Program-made: the position numbers and the translations under genes | Notes under the pieces: model-generated | Databases searched by the model: none | Seen by the model: only the letters and a program-made list of their open reading frames with translations | Told to the model about the DNA's origin: nothing | In this document: in pieces, positions 5,284 to 44,144 of the stretch | How the letters are laid out: every line of letters begins with the position of its first letter | Position numbering within the stretch: the first letter of the stretch is position 1 | Assembly (NCBI GenBank): GCA_024998755.1 | Contig: JACEUU010000003.1 | Location: 1,417,601 to 1,481,600 of the forward strand | From: Vampirovibrio sp. | GTDB taxonomy: Bacteria; Cyanobacteriota; Vampirovibrionia; Vampirovibrionales; JAJTHC01 | DNA: 64,000 nt | Direction of reading: 5' to 3'

Positions 5284-5378
5284 GGGAAGAACTGCGGTCG
5301 ATTGTCGTTACTATCTTTAGCTGGTTGGTTTTGTCGGGGGGGCTGCCAAACAGCAGTCCCCTTATGTGTTGGTAGAAT

Positions 5379-5523
5379 AAAACGGTGCTAGTCGATCGTC
5401 CATTCCCCTCGGCTCCAAACAACCGATTGTCAGCAAGATCACTAGCACCGTTTTACAAGGGATGCCATTTGAACAGATGCCCGAACTCTAACGTTCGTAC
5501 CATAAGGCTAAATCCAAATCCCT
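5379..5523 (+). ncRNA. Predicted IS110 bridge RNA (target-binding loop + donor-binding loop)
   Basis: 14-bp stem 5379-5392/5441-5454 encloses CATTCCCCT and TTGTCAG, which match the target. Stem AGGGAT/ATCCCT encloses ACAGATGC and CATAAG, which match the circle junction. The 5' and 3' ends are approximate. Confidence 0.85.
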
Positions 5524-5549
5524 ATTTTTCTACCAAAGGAAATCCTACC

Positions 5550-6473
5550 ATGAAAACCGTCGGCATAGATGTCTCAAAATCTACCCTAGACATCTGCTAT
5601 CTCAACAACCAAAGCCCCCAATTCTCTCAGTGCCAAAACCAAGAAACGGACATTGAACAATTGGTTTTGGCACTGAGAGAATTCGCCCCCACCAAAATAA
5701 CCCTAGAAGCCACAGTTGGCTACGAAAAACCACTCTACCTAGCACTCAAAGCAGCCCAACTACCCGTCGTCAAAGCAAACCCAAGACAAGTAAGAGACTT
5801 CGCCAAAGCCTGCGGCATCCTAGCCAAAACCGACAATCTAGACGCAAAAGTGCTAGCCCACTACGCTCGAGTAATCCAACCCCAAGAAACCGACTTCCTA
5901 CCACCCCAAGCCTTGGTTGAACTGGCTCGGCACCAAGAACAAACAACGCAAGCCCTAGCAACGCTCAAAACGCAAGCCCACCAAGCCACAGACCCCTTCG
6001 TTATAGCCGATTTAGCCGCCCAGTGTGAAGCCTTAAAACAACGGCTTTCAGCCATTGTAGTGGAATGGAAACGAAGAATTGCGTTAGACCCATCGATTCA
6101 AAGCAAGCAAGAATGCTTGGAGACGGTTGCTGGTGTTGGGTTTAAAACCAGTGTGGTGCTGTTGGCTTGTTTGCCTGAATTAGGTTGTTTGGGTAGGGGG
6201 AAAATAGCCTCGCTGGTGGGCGTTGCTCCGAAGAATCGGGATAGTGGTGCTTGGCGGGGTAAGCGGTGTTGTTGGGGTGGGAGATCTGGTGTCCGTCGGT
6301 TGTTGTATATGGCGGTGTTGAGTTCGGTGCGGCATGATGAGCGGTTGAAGGTGTTTTATGAGCGATTGCGGGGTGTGGGAAAGCCTGCTAAAGTGGCGTT
6401 GGTGGCTTGTATTCGGAAGTTGTTGACTATTTTGAATGCGATGGTTCGAGATCACTTAAAAGCCACTGCTTGA
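5550..6473 (+). CDS. IS110 DEDD recombinase/transposase (307 aa)
   Basis: GIDVSK, LEAT, KTD..DA RuvC-like residues, G.G..T motif, and R.SG serine wedge. AAAGGA RBS before ATG 5550. Confidence 0.95.
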
Positions 6474-6621
6474 CACAGATGCTGACAAACCAGCCAACGA
6501 AAATTAGGAACGACAATCGATGAGAGAATACGTTTTTTAATCGTTTAATTGGTATAAAGCCATTAATATTTCTAGGGGACAAGATTTATCCCGCCCGCCC
6601 CTCAATCCCGAATGTGCATAG

Positions 6622-6660
6622 CAAAAGGGTCAATTCTTTCATTTAGAATTGACCCTTTTG
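6622..6660. terminator. Bidirectional intrinsic terminator-like hairpin
   Basis: CAAAAGGGTCAATTCT-TTCATTT-AGAATTGACCCTTTTG, between convergent units. Confidence 0.7.
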
Positions 6661-6682
6661 TAATTTGAATCTATAGCTACAA

Positions 6683-42303: not shown

Positions 42304-42325
42304 TGAAGGCGTGGCTTTTCTCTAT

Positions 42326-42416
42326 GTAGGGGTGCGATTTACTAGACCTGAAGGTCTATGCAAGGCAACGCATCCGTTTAGGGATTGTGGGCGGATGTCA
42401 TAAATGACACCCCTAC
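42326..42416. repeat. Inverted REP doublet with a 27-nt hairpin insertion
   Basis: GTAGGGGTGCGATTTA[CTAGACCTGAAGGTCTATGCAAGGCAA]CGCATCC...GGATGTCATAAATGACACCCCTAC. Otherwise similar to the reverse complement of 49067-49132. Confidence 0.75.
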
Positions 42417-42448
42417 CATTTTTATTATTAAAATAACTGTAAATAGGA

Positions 42449-43711
42449 TTATGGCTGGTTTAATTGCCGAAGTAATTTAATCAGTTCTTCATCGCTTAGT
42501 TTATTCGTTTTTTCTGAATCAGTGGTTGTTTGTGTTTGTGATTTCATGCCTGATGAAACAGGGGCATTGGGTTGCGAGGTGCCTGTTACGGTGAATTTAG
42601 GCACGGGGCGTCCAGCAGGCTTTAACTCATCGCCTGAAGTTTCTAAGCCTAGCACTTGTTTTACACCATCTACTGAAGCTTCTAGCTTATTGCTACCCCC
42701 CAGTTTTTTCAGCGTAACGGATTGCCCTTCTAGCGTAAAGGGTTTATTCAAGGGCTTAGCAAGGGTTTGTACACCACTGCCATTAGGTACTTCAATTAAA
42801 GCAACGGTTCTACCATCGGTTTTGCTTTGCACCCAACCCACAAACCGAATGGTAGGGGGAAGGGGTTCTTCTTCAATGTTAATAGCGCCGCCCACTTGGG
42901 TCAATACGTTAGCAGAAGCCACCCCACTGGCTGTAGGAAACGGACTAACGCTTCTGCCACCACGTGGAGGAGGCGTGTAATACCCTTGCGGATTTCTAGC
43001 CCCACCCGCATCCGTTGGTTCTTTAGGGGAAAAATGCTTTACCAGTTCAATTGAAGGCTTTAGCGGGTCTGCCCGTTTATAGCCTTTTGAAGAAGTGGTG
43101 GGTTTTTCTGATTGAACGGAAGCGAGCAAACTAAGGGCTTCAGTTTGACGAAAATCAGCGTCTTTTTCTTCTATGGGGTGCACGCCTTCAATGACCGTGG
43201 CGGGCTGGCTTACGGCTTGGGCTTCTTTTGTGGTGGCTAGTAATGCGGTTGCGGTTGTTGAATCTACAAAGAAAGACTCGTCTGTATCATGCCAAATTTT
43301 TTGACCTACTTGGTAAGTGCCTATCGCCAAGAAAACCAAGGCGGTGGCGGTTATTAAAAAGGCAGCCACGGGTAACACCTTGGGGAAGAAGGCTTTAGTT
43401 AGGGTGTTTTTATCTTTTGTTACCCCTAAAAAGGGTTGCCACTGGGGTAGTGTTTGGGTGTTATGCCAATCCGTTTGGTCTTGTGGTGTTAGTGTGGTGG
43501 GTGCTGAATAGGCTAATTCAGGGCGAAGTGCGGTGGTGGTAAATGGTCCGCCAAACTTCGAGACGGTTTCAAAGGCTTTTTCTACGGGCTTTTCCCCAAA
43601 CGGAGACAGGCTTGAATGCGGGTTTGTTTTTGCCGGAAAGCTAGTGCCATTGTTTCGTGGCGAAGGGGTTGGTTTATGGGTGTTTTGAGAGGGTGGGTGT
43701 AGCACAAGCAT
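42449..43711 (-). CDS. Bitopic membrane protein upstream of the secretins (possibly PilP/GspC-like)
   Basis: Single TM helix, Pro-rich linker, C-terminal beta domain (IRFVGWVQ...ALIEVP). Its position before the secretins supports the guess. Confidence 0.5.
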   Translation of the reverse strand: MLVLHPPSQNTHKPTPSPRNNGTSFPAKTNPHSSLSPFGEKPVEKAFETVSKFGGPFTTTALRPELAYSAPTTLTPQDQTDWHNTQTLPQWQPFLGVTKDKNTLTKAFFPKVLPVAAFLITATALVFLAIGTYQVGQKIWHDTDESFFVDSTTATALLATTKEAQAVSQPATVIEGVHPIEEKDADFRQTEALSLLASVQSEKPTTSSKGYKRADPLKPSIELVKHFSPKEPTDAGGARNPQGYYTPPPRGGRSVSPFPTASGVASANVLTQVGGAINIEEEPLPPTIRFVGWVQSKTDGRTVALIEVPNGSGVQTLAKPLNKPFTLEGQSVTLKKLGGSNKLEASVDGVKQVLGLETSGDELKPAGRPVPKFTVTGTSQPNAPVSSGMKSQTQTTTDSEKTNKLSDEELIKLLRQLNQP

Positions 43712-43865
43712 CTCTTTCTGTTTGTTTTTTTGATAAGGACGTAGCGAATTCTCTCTGTTTATTTTTATAGTTTGACTTTAATTGCTTGAATTAGGTAAGG
43801 TGCTTGGGGGTAGAATCCATCAGTAGATGGAGAAAAATCGGGGCAAGGGGTTGGTAATCCAATCA

Positions 43866-44144
43866 AACAATAAATAGCGTAAAAAACGACCAACCAGTAG
43901 GAACGACCATCGCGTTTGCTCTGCAGTCGTCGATGCGTTCCGTCCACCGGAGGGTCAAAAAGAGCATCCCCCCGTCAATGCCCTTTTGGTGGCATAGGGG
44001 GGTGTCTTTTTGGGGGGATTTTAGGGGGCACCCCCTGAATTTTCGGGGGGTGTCGGGGGGGGTGCCAAACCGCAACCCCCTGACAAACCAACCAGCTAAA
44101 CCAAGGAACGACAATCGATGAGAGAACACACGATTCAAACGGTA
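43866..44144 (-). mobile_element. Family-1 repeat (copy N), containing an empty IS110 target (CT core 44080-44081)
   Basis: Reverse-complement family-1 interior containing GCAACCCCCTGACAAACC. Confidence 0.88.

What the first reader, a model, noticed from the sequence alone, without database searches (positions are those of the whole stretch)
5298..44144. An RNA-guided IS110 uses a transposon-derived MITE family as its landing pad
Seen: both IS110 copies sit at the same CT in the first hairpin of family-1 repeats. Three uninterrupted copies in the window carry empty sites that match the guides (cores at 11305-11306, 19575-19576 on the minus strand, and 44080-44081). Copies C, F and H have point mismatches. 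Copies A, D, J, K and L replace the whole hairpin with a different one (e.g. GTTAAGGGGGTTCT...AGAACCCCCTTAAC) that lacks the target. Established: IS621 and several other IS110 members target REP sequences. Inference: the target here is itself a non-autonomous IS630 derivative, giving a three-tier system (IS630-B mobilises the MITE, the MITE hosts IS110). The hairpin variants may be escape alleles or may predate the IS110.
Basis: partly seen in the sequence, partly recalled or inferred. Interest (0 to 1): 0.8.

Follow-up and report, generated by a model that had tools for sequence, protein, structure and literature searches.

The report
Bridge-RNA IS110 that lands in MITE hairpins
A small RNA-guided jumping gene in a Vampirovibrio-like bacterium inserts only into one hairpin of an older, non-coding jumping element, and its close relatives elsewhere have rewritten the same guide RNA to hit other hairpins of those elements; this is a clear natural example of a known mechanism, not a new one.

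Summary
The 2.49-Mb genome has 13 full copies of a 1121-bp IS110 element and one deleted remnant. All of them sit at the same CT, ...CCCCT|GACA..., in a GC-rich hairpin carried mainly by a ~285-bp repeat family.

The element's 5' end folds as a two-loop bridge RNA. The target loop reads CAUUCCCCU and UUGUCAG. The donor loop matches the element's own RE-CT-LE junction.

No insertion is found in the 23 GTTAAGGGGG-variant repeat copies (39 CCCCCT|TAACA sites), against 12 of 50 CCCCT|GACAA sites (p = 9e-4).

New here: recombinases 87-92% identical, from metagenomes and the sister genome, carry three other guide pairs: UGUUAAG, GGCAUAG and ACUGUAG. Each is inserted exactly where its guides predict:
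- the GTTAAGGGGG hairpin;
- a second hairpin of the same repeat;
- a hairpin of a second repeat family.

The "escape allele" idea is not supported. Both hairpin variants occur in the sister species. The repeats are ~12% diverged, whereas the IS110 copies differ by under 0.6% apart from one shared 24-bp deletion.

The IS630 link rests on shared terminal repeats (22/25) and a TNA duplication. There is no internal homology, and mobilisation is untested.

Verdict: a new member of a known kind, with a useful natural re-programming series.

The parts
5363..6483 (+). IS110 copy 1 (1121 bp counting the 3' CT core at 6482-6483; the left core CT is 5361-5362). The ORF is intact but carries a G-to-V change in the EATGGYE motif.
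5363..5549 (+). Bridge RNA region (left non-coding end): two stem-loops with internal loops, z = -6.4
5401..5409 (+). Left target guide CATTCCCCT, same sense as target CAGTCCCCT (8/9)
5427..5433 (+). Right target guide TTGTCAG, antisense to core+RT CTGACAA (7/7)
5473..5480 (+). Left donor guide ACAGATGC, same sense as the right end ...ACAGATGCT
   Evidence: read from sequence
5501..5506 (+). Right donor guide CATAAG, antisense to CT+left end CTTATG
   Evidence: read from sequence
5550..6473 (+). Recombinase gene (307 aa; DEDD_Tnp_IS110 + Transposase_20)
36861..37981 (-). IS110 copy 2, with an in-frame TAG (TAC to TAG) in the DEDD domain; belongs to the 9-copy non-autonomous lineage
5298..5362 (+). 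Left half of the short palindromic repeat hosting copy 1 (inverted arm plus hairpin, ending in the core CT)
6484..6559 (+). Right half of the host repeat of copy 1 (GACAAACC... arm to the terminal repeat)
36796..36860 (-). Right arm of the repeat hosting copy 2
37982..38083 (-). Left arm plus hairpin of the repeat hosting copy 2
11298..11311 (+). Empty perfect target CAGTCCCCTGACAA (core 11305-11306) in the full-length repeat 11112-11382
19570..19583 (-). Empty perfect target (core 19575-19576) in the repeat 19503-19798
44073..44086 (+). Empty target CAACCCCCTGACAA (core 44080-44081), the same variant as the site occupied by copy 2
2828..3125 (-). Full-length repeat with the GTTAAGGGGG...CCCCCTTAAC hairpin (V2); others at 27701-27988 (-), 31769-32057 (-), 35199-35466 (+) and, truncated, 9470-9695 (+)
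47149..48231 (-). IS630-B (1083 bp), whose terminal repeat TACCAATTCCAAGTTTAAATAGCGT matches the repeat family's; nested in an IS630-A copy
17859..17903 (+). Hairpin of a second MITE family (...GGGTTCGCCCCTAC), the target of sister guide set D; a second copy lies at 46322-46366

Best explanation
What it is. This is an ordinary IS110-family element that uses a bridge RNA. It has no terminal inverted repeats and carries a CT core at each junction.

The RNA. The 187-nt left end is the bridge RNA. Its first internal loop pairs with the target. [quoted passage not shown] Its second loop pairs with the element's own circle junction, ACAGATG-CT-TATG.

The target. The motif is the 3' arm and base of a GC-rich hairpin. 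That hairpin is a module of an abundant, old, non-coding repeat of about 285 bp, with IS630-type terminal repeats. So the element has about 50 near-identical, mostly intergenic sites and inserts nowhere else.

Target choice. It is set by the RNA, chiefly by the right guide. Sister elements with 87-92% identical recombinases have changed only the two guide segments. They insert in the alternative GTTAAGGGGG hairpin, in a second hairpin of the same repeat, or in a hairpin of a second MITE family.

Shown versus inferred.
- Shown by sequence: the sites, the fold, guide/target complementarity and covariation, and homology to solved bridge recombinases.
- Inferred: transcription of the RNA, a circular intermediate, mobilisation of the nine stop-codon copies in trans, and mobilisation of the repeat by IS630-B.
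For: Sites. 13 of 13 copies and one remnant sit at the same CT. The guides are identical in all 13 copies.

Fold. Two stem-loops with internal loops, -58.3 kcal/mol, z = -6.4. The consensus fold of 7 relatives has 3 compensatory pairs.

Protein. PF01548 + PF02371. Homologous to the ISCro4 (1e-26) and IS621 (5e-23) transposase structures. In the printed ISCro4 alignment the GIDVSK, EAT, KTD..DA and SG motifs are conserved.

Geometry. [quoted passage not shown]

Covariation.
- Across more than 25 distinct insertion loci in five guide sets (A, A2, B, C, D), the cognate right guide matches 7/7 in all but one (6/7).
- Non-cognate right guides match 2-4/7.
- In the 190-nt alignment, changes cluster in the two target-guide segments; outside them only scattered substitutions, several of them compensatory in the stems. 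The donor-guide segments are unchanged apart from one substitution in L064, a broken copy.

Occupancy. 12 of 50 CCCCT|GACAA sites against 0 of 39 CCCCCT|TAACA sites, p = 9e-4.

Host repeat.
- About 69 copies of at least 200 bp.
- Terminal repeat 22/25 identical to IS630-B.
- No Y1/RAYT transposase above the cut-off in the genome.
Against: - No RNA or activity data.
- Left-guide pairing is imperfect (6-8 of 9). It discriminates poorly between sets, because every target shares CCCCT.
- Only 5 of 13 insertions are in repeat copies of at least 200 bp. The others are in short or truncated derivatives, or in other contexts of the same hairpin. The landing pad is therefore strictly the hairpin module.
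- The left donor guide reads ...GCC where the donor has ...GCT.
- The repeat shares nothing with IS630-B beyond the terminal repeats.
Confidence: 0.85

Rival explanations
1. Escape alleles. On this reading the GTTAAGGGGG hairpin (V2) arose, or spread by conversion, because it protects repeat copies from this IS110. The sister guide sets would be the IS110's counter-moves, making a guide/target arms race.
For: - 0 of 23 V2 copies are occupied.
- V1 and V2 differ only in a hairpin module of about 60 bp.
- The module looks mobile among copies. The best tree needs 13 V1/V2 changes. Some V1-V2 pairs are 95-97% identical outside the hairpin, against a mean of 88%.
- One locus carries V2 in this genome but V1 plus IS110 in a metagenome contig whose IS110 recombinase is 99% identical and whose shared flank is almost identical.
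- Sister IS110s do target V2.
Against: - Non-occupancy follows trivially from the 3/5 mismatch in the right target.
- Both variants are present in the sister species.
- Repeat copies are about 12% diverged, whereas the IS110 copies differ by under 0.6% apart from one shared 24-bp deletion. The variants therefore predate this burst.
- No cost of IS110 insertion to a non-coding repeat is evident.
- Monophyly of V2 is not rejected (p-AU 0.12).
- The polymorphic locus may be a chimeric short-read assembly through a 100-nt identical stretch.
Confidence: 0.1
2. The repeat is a fossil. It shares an ancestor's terminal repeats with IS630-B but is no longer mobilised by it. The system would then be two-tier (a static repeat plus IS110) rather than a live three-tier chain.
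For: - Repeat copies are 87-90% identical to each other, while the 19 long IS630-B matches are 97.8-100% identical to the reference copy.
- The repeat's consensus differs from the IS630-B terminal repeat at 3-4 of 25 positions.
- There is no internal homology.
- Flanking TNA duplications are decayed in many repeat copies.
Against: - A few repeat pairs are 97-99% identical, so some recent copying, or conversion, has occurred.
- IS630-B is the only element in the genome with matching ends.
- TTA/TTA flanks are kept in several copies.
Confidence: 0.4
3. Protein-only recognition. The recombinase would read the hairpin directly, and the complementarity with the 5' RNA would be coincidental.
For: All targets share CCCCT next to a GC-rich stem. 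A preprint on ISPpu10 reports that a target stem-loop adds specificity (10.64898/2026.03.19.712850).
Against: Four different right targets (GACAA, TAACA, ATGCC, ACAGT) each co-occur with the exactly complementary 7-mer in the RNA loop, while the proteins stay 87-92% identical. In set C the left target lies in the 5' arm of the hairpin rather than the 3' arm.
Confidence: 0.03

Closest known systems
IS621 (E. coli) bridge recombinase and bridge RNA (Durrant et al. 2024, PMC11208160; structures 8wt6 and others)
   Same: - Same two-domain recombinase (5e-23 to the solved chain).
- 5' non-coding RNA with a target loop followed by a donor loop.
- CT core covered by both guides, with the same strand logic for the left and right guides.
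- Natural targets are repeated palindromic elements (REP).
   Different: - The proteins are distant relatives: E-value 5e-23 to the solved IS621 chain; percent identity not computed.
- The right guide pairs over 7 nt here (4 nt in wild-type IS621).
- The target is a hairpin inside a repeat with IS630-type ends, in a genome with no RAYT above the cut-off, not a REP.
ISPpu10 / ISPpu9 of Pseudomonas putida (bioRxiv 10.64898/2026.03.19.712850; PMC12288879)
   Same: - All insertions fall in copies of one intergenic palindromic repeat.
- The left target forms the 3' arm of a GC-rich stem-loop 5' of the core, as in sets A, B and D here.
- The recombinase acts in trans. That fits the nine stop-codon copies here.
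   Different: - Different host phylum and a different target element (REP).
- No series of re-programmed sister elements aimed at different hairpins of one repeat has been described there, as far as the texts read here show.
[quoted passage not shown]
   Same: An IS110-superfamily element whose specific landing site is a structural part of another transposable element.
   Different: - IS1111-type architecture (3' RNA, subterminal repeats).
- The target is an autonomous transposon's end, not a subterminal hairpin of a non-autonomous repeat.
ISCro4 transposase (PDB 9t56)
   Same: Best solved-structure match (1e-26), aligned over nearly full length with conserved catalytic motifs.
   Different: Known here only as a structure entry. 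Its target and RNA were not compared.

Membership tests
IS110 family / bridge recombinase system | RuvC-like DEDD domain (PF01548) plus Tnp domain (PF02371) with a catalytic Ser | tested here: met
   (76.9 and 54.5 bits, both above the cut-offs). The printed alignment to ISCro4 keeps GIDVSK, EAT, KTD..DA and SG; IS621 was also matched (5e-23) but its alignment was not printed.
IS110 family / bridge recombinase system | No terminal inverted repeats; a 2-nt core (CT) at both junctions; site-specific insertion | tested here: met
   ...CCCCT|TATGTG...GATGCT|GACA... in 13 of 13 copies
IS110 family / bridge recombinase system | Non-coding end that folds into two stem-loops with internal loops (target loop, donor loop) | tested here: met
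   z = -6.4; consensus fold, 3 compensatory pairs. There is no Rfam family to compare with.
IS110 family / bridge recombinase system | Loop segments complementary to the target (left/right target guides) and to the element's own junction (left/right donor guides), each covering the core | tested here: met
   Left target guide 6-8/9 and right target guide 7/7. Left donor guide ACAGAUGC and right donor guide CAUAAG were read. The second core base in the left donor guide is mismatched.
IS110 family / bridge recombinase system | Guides covary with targets among relatives | tested here: met
   five guide sets (A, A2, B, C, D) giving four distinct right guides and four targets; non-cognate right guides match 2-4/7
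IS110 family / bridge recombinase system | Circular intermediate with a promoter assembled at the junction | tested here: inconclusive
   By reading the sequence only. TTGACA (6470-6475), an 18-nt spacer across CT, then TAGAAT (5373-5378) would form on a circle.
IS110 family / bridge recombinase system | The bridge RNA is transcribed and required | not testable with these tools
MITE of an IS630-type element | Short, non-coding, multi-copy, with terminal inverted repeats | tested here: met
   About 285 bp; about 69 copies of at least 200 bp. Left and right 25-nt consensus ends agree at 24/25.
MITE of an IS630-type element | Terminal repeats match those of an autonomous element in the same genome | tested here: met
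   22/25 and 21/25 to IS630-B, 6/25 to IS630-A
MITE of an IS630-type element | The same target-site duplication as the autonomous element | tested here: inconclusive
   IS630-B has a 3-bp TNA duplication in 9 of 18 copies. Several repeat copies have TTA/TTA, but many are unmatched.
MITE of an IS630-type element | Internal sequence derived from the autonomous element (deletion derivative) | tested here: not met
   blastn-short finds only the terminal repeats. It shares ends with IS630-B but is not a deletion derivative of it.
MITE of an IS630-type element | Presence/absence polymorphism, or mobilisation by the transposase | not tested
   The sister genome is too diverged and fragmented for orthologous empty sites.
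REP / REPIN (RAYT-mobilised) | A Y1 (RAYT) transposase in the genome | tested here: not met
   The best PF01797 hit is 21.2 bits, below the 23-bit cut-off. The genome is 94% complete.

The most novel reading that the evidence does not exclude
One IS110 lineage of Vampirovibrio-like bacteria may live as a specialised hyperparasite of IS630-type MITEs. It would diversify only by rewriting its target loop from one MITE hairpin to another. Four such states are seen among recombinases that are 87-92% identical.

Meanwhile the MITE copies would swap hairpin modules (V1 and V2), changing which IS110 variant can enter them. One locus appears to carry V2 in this genome and V1 plus IS110 in a near-identical strain.

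If both processes are real and coupled, this is a natural guide/target arms race between two layers of selfish DNA.
Probability: 0.2. Interest if true: 0.7.

Novelty: new member of a known kind. Interest (0 to 1): 0.42.

Why it matters
The mechanism is not new: this is a bridge-RNA IS110 that uses an abundant palindromic repeat as a safe harbour. The concept has precedents in IS621, ISPpu9 and ISPpu10 in REPs, and in IS4321/IS5075 in transposon ends.

Three things are useful.

1. It extends repeat-targeting IS110s to Vampirovibrionales (Melainabacteria), and to hairpins inside repeats with IS630-type ends, in a genome without a RAYT.

2. It gives a compact natural re-programming series. Five guide sets (four distinct right guides) sit on nearly the same protein and donor loop, with more than 25 independent insertion loci. 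Three points follow:
   - target choice can shift through a few substitutions in two short RNA segments;
   - the left target stays close to CCCCT;
   - the 7-nt right guide does the discriminating.
   These are ready-made orthogonal guide/target sets for testing specificity rules, including the proposed role of a target stem-loop.

3. Nine of the 13 copies share a stop codon, so most copies are probably moved in trans by the four intact ones.

Tried and rejected
- Rfam. No family matched the window at gathering scores. Only chance miRNA hits appeared at E<1 on the bridge region.
- Composite mobility. I tested whether MITE::IS110 composites are copied as units by the IS630 transposase. Flanks of the 13 copies are alike only across the repeat, at 83-97%, so the insertions are independent. 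Rejected.
- REP/RAYT origin of the hairpin. No Y1 transposase is above the cut-off. Rejected for this genome.
- Deletion-derivative origin of the repeat from IS630-B. There is no internal similarity. Rejected.
- Tree test for a single origin of the V2 hairpin. Inconclusive: 13 changes on the best tree, yet monophyly is not rejected (p-AU 0.12; only 187 columns).
- Orthologous empty sites in the sister genome G001. Coding identity is only 73-88% and synteny is broken over 250 contigs, so this was not usable.
- Distant relatives (50-52% aa, L081-L087). They have the same architecture. One (P0013) again sits in a repeat with GTTTTAAATAGCGG/CCGCTATTTAAAAC ends. The other (P0012) targets TTACGTACT|AAAGT, without an obvious MITE. 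Not pursued further.
- Literature. Full-text searches for IS110 with MITE and bridge RNA returned only the ISPpu9 paper, which is about a different kind of MITE.
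Full report
WHAT IS THERE

The window is G000:C1:1417601-1481600 of a 2.49-Mb, 43% GC genome in three contigs. The nearest named relative of its IS110 is a 'Candidatus Melainabacteria' metagenome-assembled genome from Lac Pavin. Earlier notes of this scan call the organism Vampirovibrio-like.

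Two ORFs carry IS110 domains. Reading both loci shows the same 1121-bp element at 5363-6483 (+) and 36861-37981 (-). Each is bounded as ...CCCCT|TATGTGTTGG...CACAGAT(G/A)CT|GACAAACC....

Genome-wide there are 13 full copies. Apart from a 24-bp deletion shared by three of them, they differ at only 10 single positions (99.5-100% identical over the aligned bases). All 13 have the same junctions. A fourteenth site holds the first 35 nt of the left end at the same CT, followed by a deletion into the repeat's terminus. No other IS110-type gene exists in the genome.

THE HOST SEQUENCE

The flanks belong to a repeat of about 285 bp, with about 69 copies of at least 200 bp. It has:
- 25-nt terminal inverted repeats;
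- several GC-rich hairpins;
- a subterminal hairpin next to the right arm.

In most copies that hairpin reads GTCGGGGGGCTGCCAAACAGCAGTCCCCTGAC (V1). The insertion point is the CT near the base of the hairpin's 3' arm.

A second class (V2, 23 copies) has GTTAAGGGGGTTCTCGAACAAGAACCCCCTTAAC instead. The two consensus sequences differ only in this module of about 60 bp.

The hairpin also occurs in short palindromic arm-hairpin-arm derivatives. These host both window copies. It also occurs in a few other contexts. Strictly, then, the landing pad is the hairpin module, which is mostly carried by this repeat.

THE GUIDE RNA

The 187-nt left end folds into two stem-loops with large internal loops: -58.3 kcal/mol, z = -6.4, and none of 200 shuffles folds as well.

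Loop 1 carries two segments:
- CAUUCCCCU (5401-5409), the same sense as CAGTCCCCT;
- UUGUCAG (5427-5433), antisense to CTGACAA.

Loop 2 carries two segments:
- ACAGAUGC, the same sense as the right end;
- CAUAAG, antisense to CT plus the left end.

This is the strand logic published for IS621, with both guides covering the core (PMC11208160).

The protein aligns over nearly its full length with the solved ISCro4 (1e-26) and IS621 (5e-23) transposases; the DEDD and Ser motifs are conserved in the printed ISCro4 alignment.

By inspection, a circle junction would assemble TTGACA, an 18-nt spacer and TAGAAT. This was read from the sequence and not tested.

OCCUPANCY

- CCCCT|GACAA sites: 12 occupied, plus one more with right target GACAC, and 38 empty. 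Of the 38 empty sites, 36 are in hairpin repeats and 2 are elsewhere. Chance expects 3.3.
- CCCCCT|TAACA sites: 0 occupied of 39, p = 9e-4. Counted per repeat copy, the figures are 13 of 58 against 0 of 23, p = 0.015.
- Repeat copies with a point change in the core or right target: 0 of 14 occupied, p = 0.054.

Insertions tolerate variation in the distal left target: CAGTCCCCT in 9, GCATCCCCT in 2, CAACCCCCT in 1 and AGTCCCCCT in 1.

RELATIVES: THE MAIN ADDITION

Searches of genomes, metagenomes and the protein collection found recombinases 87-92% identical to the window's. Their contigs were fetched.

Their 190-nt left ends align with changes clustered in the two target-guide segments. Outside them there are only scattered substitutions, several of them compensatory in the stems. 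The donor-guide segments are unchanged apart from one substitution in L064, a broken copy.

Besides set A there are four more guide sets, A2, B, C and D:
- A2 (91% aa): CUAUCCCCU and UUGUCAG, inserted in GCAGTCCCCT|GACAA.
- B (88% aa; includes the only IS110 of the sister species G001): UCACCCCCU and UGUUAAG, inserted in ...CACCCCCT|TAACA. This is the V2 hairpin, and insertions occur on either arm.
- C (87% aa): CACCCCUCU and GGCAUAG, inserted in CCACCCCCCT|ATGCC. This is the reverse strand of a different hairpin of the same repeat.
- D (90% aa to the window's recombinase; 92.5% to A2): CACGCCCCU and ACUGUAG, inserted at seven distinct loci in GGTTCGCCCCT|ACAGT. This is a hairpin of a second MITE family, also present in the window at 17859-17903 and 46322-46366.

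The cognate right guide matches 7/7 everywhere except one copy (6/7). Non-cognate guides match 2-4/7. The left guide is less discriminating, because all targets keep CCCCT.

This genome holds 31-40 empty sites for each of sets B, C and D, against 2.5-3.3 expected. It has no element with those guides.

AGE AND THE 'ESCAPE' IDEA

- Repeat copies are 87.5% (V1), 89.6% (V2) and 87.8% (between classes) identical outside the hairpin. The IS110 copies differ by at most 0.6% apart from the shared 24-bp deletion.
- The sister species has both variants, 84 and 16 copies.

The variants therefore predate the present IS110 burst and the split of the two species. V2 is also no refuge at clade level.

Some signs suggest that the hairpin module moves between copies:
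- the best tree needs 13 V1/V2 changes, although monophyly of V2 is not rejected (p 0.12);
- some V1-V2 pairs are 95-97% alike outside the hairpin;
- one metagenome contig (L037), whose recombinase is 99% identical, matches genome locus C3:44,862 almost perfectly through the unique flank and the first ~120 nt of the repeat. It then switches to V1 plus IS110 where this genome has V2.

That last case could be gene conversion, or a chimeric assembly through the repeat.

THE IS630 LINK

The genome has two IS630 types. IS630-B is 1083 bp, lies at window 47149-48231 and has 18 paired copies. Its ends match the repeat's consensus at 22/25 and 21/25. IS630-A matches at 6/25.

IS630-B is flanked by a 3-bp TNA duplication in 9 of 18 copies. 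Several repeat copies keep TTA/TTA.

Against a live link:
- nothing beyond the ends is shared;
- the repeat is old, while IS630-B is young.

'Shares ends with IS630-B' is shown. 'Is mobilised by IS630-B' is inferred. No RAYT is present above the cut-off.

COMPARISON AND VERDICT

The element works like IS621, ISPpu9 and ISPpu10, and it meets the tested membership criteria for the IS110 bridge-RNA family. Like ISPpu10 (10.64898/2026.03.19.712850), its left target forms the 3' arm of a GC-rich stem-loop.

REPs are themselves non-autonomous elements moved by RAYTs. IS4321 and IS5075 land in transposon ends. So a three-layer arrangement has precedents.

The finding is real and well supported, but it is a new member of a known kind. 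Its added value is the natural series of re-programmed guides aimed at different hairpins of the same MITEs.

Noticed in passing
window 36861-37981 and eight other genome copies (e.g. C1:1027725, C2:9405, C2:475270): Nine of the 13 IS110 copies share one in-frame TAC-to-TAG stop in the DEDD domain (EATGG*), plus two linked substitutions. Three of the nine also share a 24-bp in-frame deletion. The defective lineage outnumbers the four intact copies. This implies mobilisation in trans, or gene conversion.
   Followed up: partly
window 5550-6473 (codon near 5715): The intact window copy alone has EATVGYE where the other copies have EATGGY(E/*). This G-to-V change sits next to the catalytic Glu and lowers its Pfam score. 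Its activity may be impaired.
   Followed up: no
genome C1:178220-178254: A 35-nt IS110 left-end remnant sits at the usual CT of a repeat hairpin. It is joined directly to the repeat's terminal TTTGAATTGGTA. This is a deletion across the element and the right arm, with ATC microhomology.
   Followed up: partly
L037 versus genome C3:44,700-45,290: This is the same locus in a strain whose IS110 recombinase is 99% identical and whose shared flank is almost identical. The sequences agree almost perfectly up to about nt 120 of the repeat, then diverge. The metagenome contig has the V1 hairpin plus IS110, and this genome has V2. This is either hairpin-module conversion or a chimeric assembly.
   Followed up: partly
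window 47149-48231 within about 46990-49060: IS630-B is nested inside an IS630-A copy at ...GCCTT(A/C)|TACC...GGTA|TGACAG. The intact IS630-A reads GCCTTACAG. Three right ends in the genome share this junction, so the nested composite may itself have been copied.
   Followed up: partly
IS630-B copies genome-wide (e.g. C2:282394-283477): IS630-B is flanked by a 3-bp TNA duplication in 9 of 18 copies, rather than the 2-bp TA usually quoted for IS630/Tc1-mariner elements. The comparison rests on my own knowledge.
   Followed up: partly
window 2828-3125 and other full-length repeat copies: The repeat's left end carries, in direct rather than inverted orientation, a copy of the right-arm motif: ACCAACCAG-TAGGAACGACCATCG against ACCAACCAGCTAAAGCTAGGAACGACAATCGAT. 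Function unknown.
   Followed up: no
window 10916-11036 and 35046-35166: A further 121-nt repeat (83% identical between these two copies) lies directly upstream of two repeat copies. It has many matches in the sister genome and was not characterised.
   Followed up: no
L084-L087: An IS110 relative only 52% identical is also inserted in a short repeat with GTTTTAAATAGCGG / CCGCTATTTAAAAC ends. Its guides fit its own flanks (CTTGCT). MITE-targeting may therefore be wider in this branch.
   Followed up: partly
sister genome G001, many contig ends (e.g. C97:10-29, C98:58-77, C107:77-96): Dozens of G001 contigs start or stop at the repeat's CCCC(T/C)GACAAACC arm. IS110 and repeat copy numbers in that assembly are therefore probably underestimates.
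   Followed up: no
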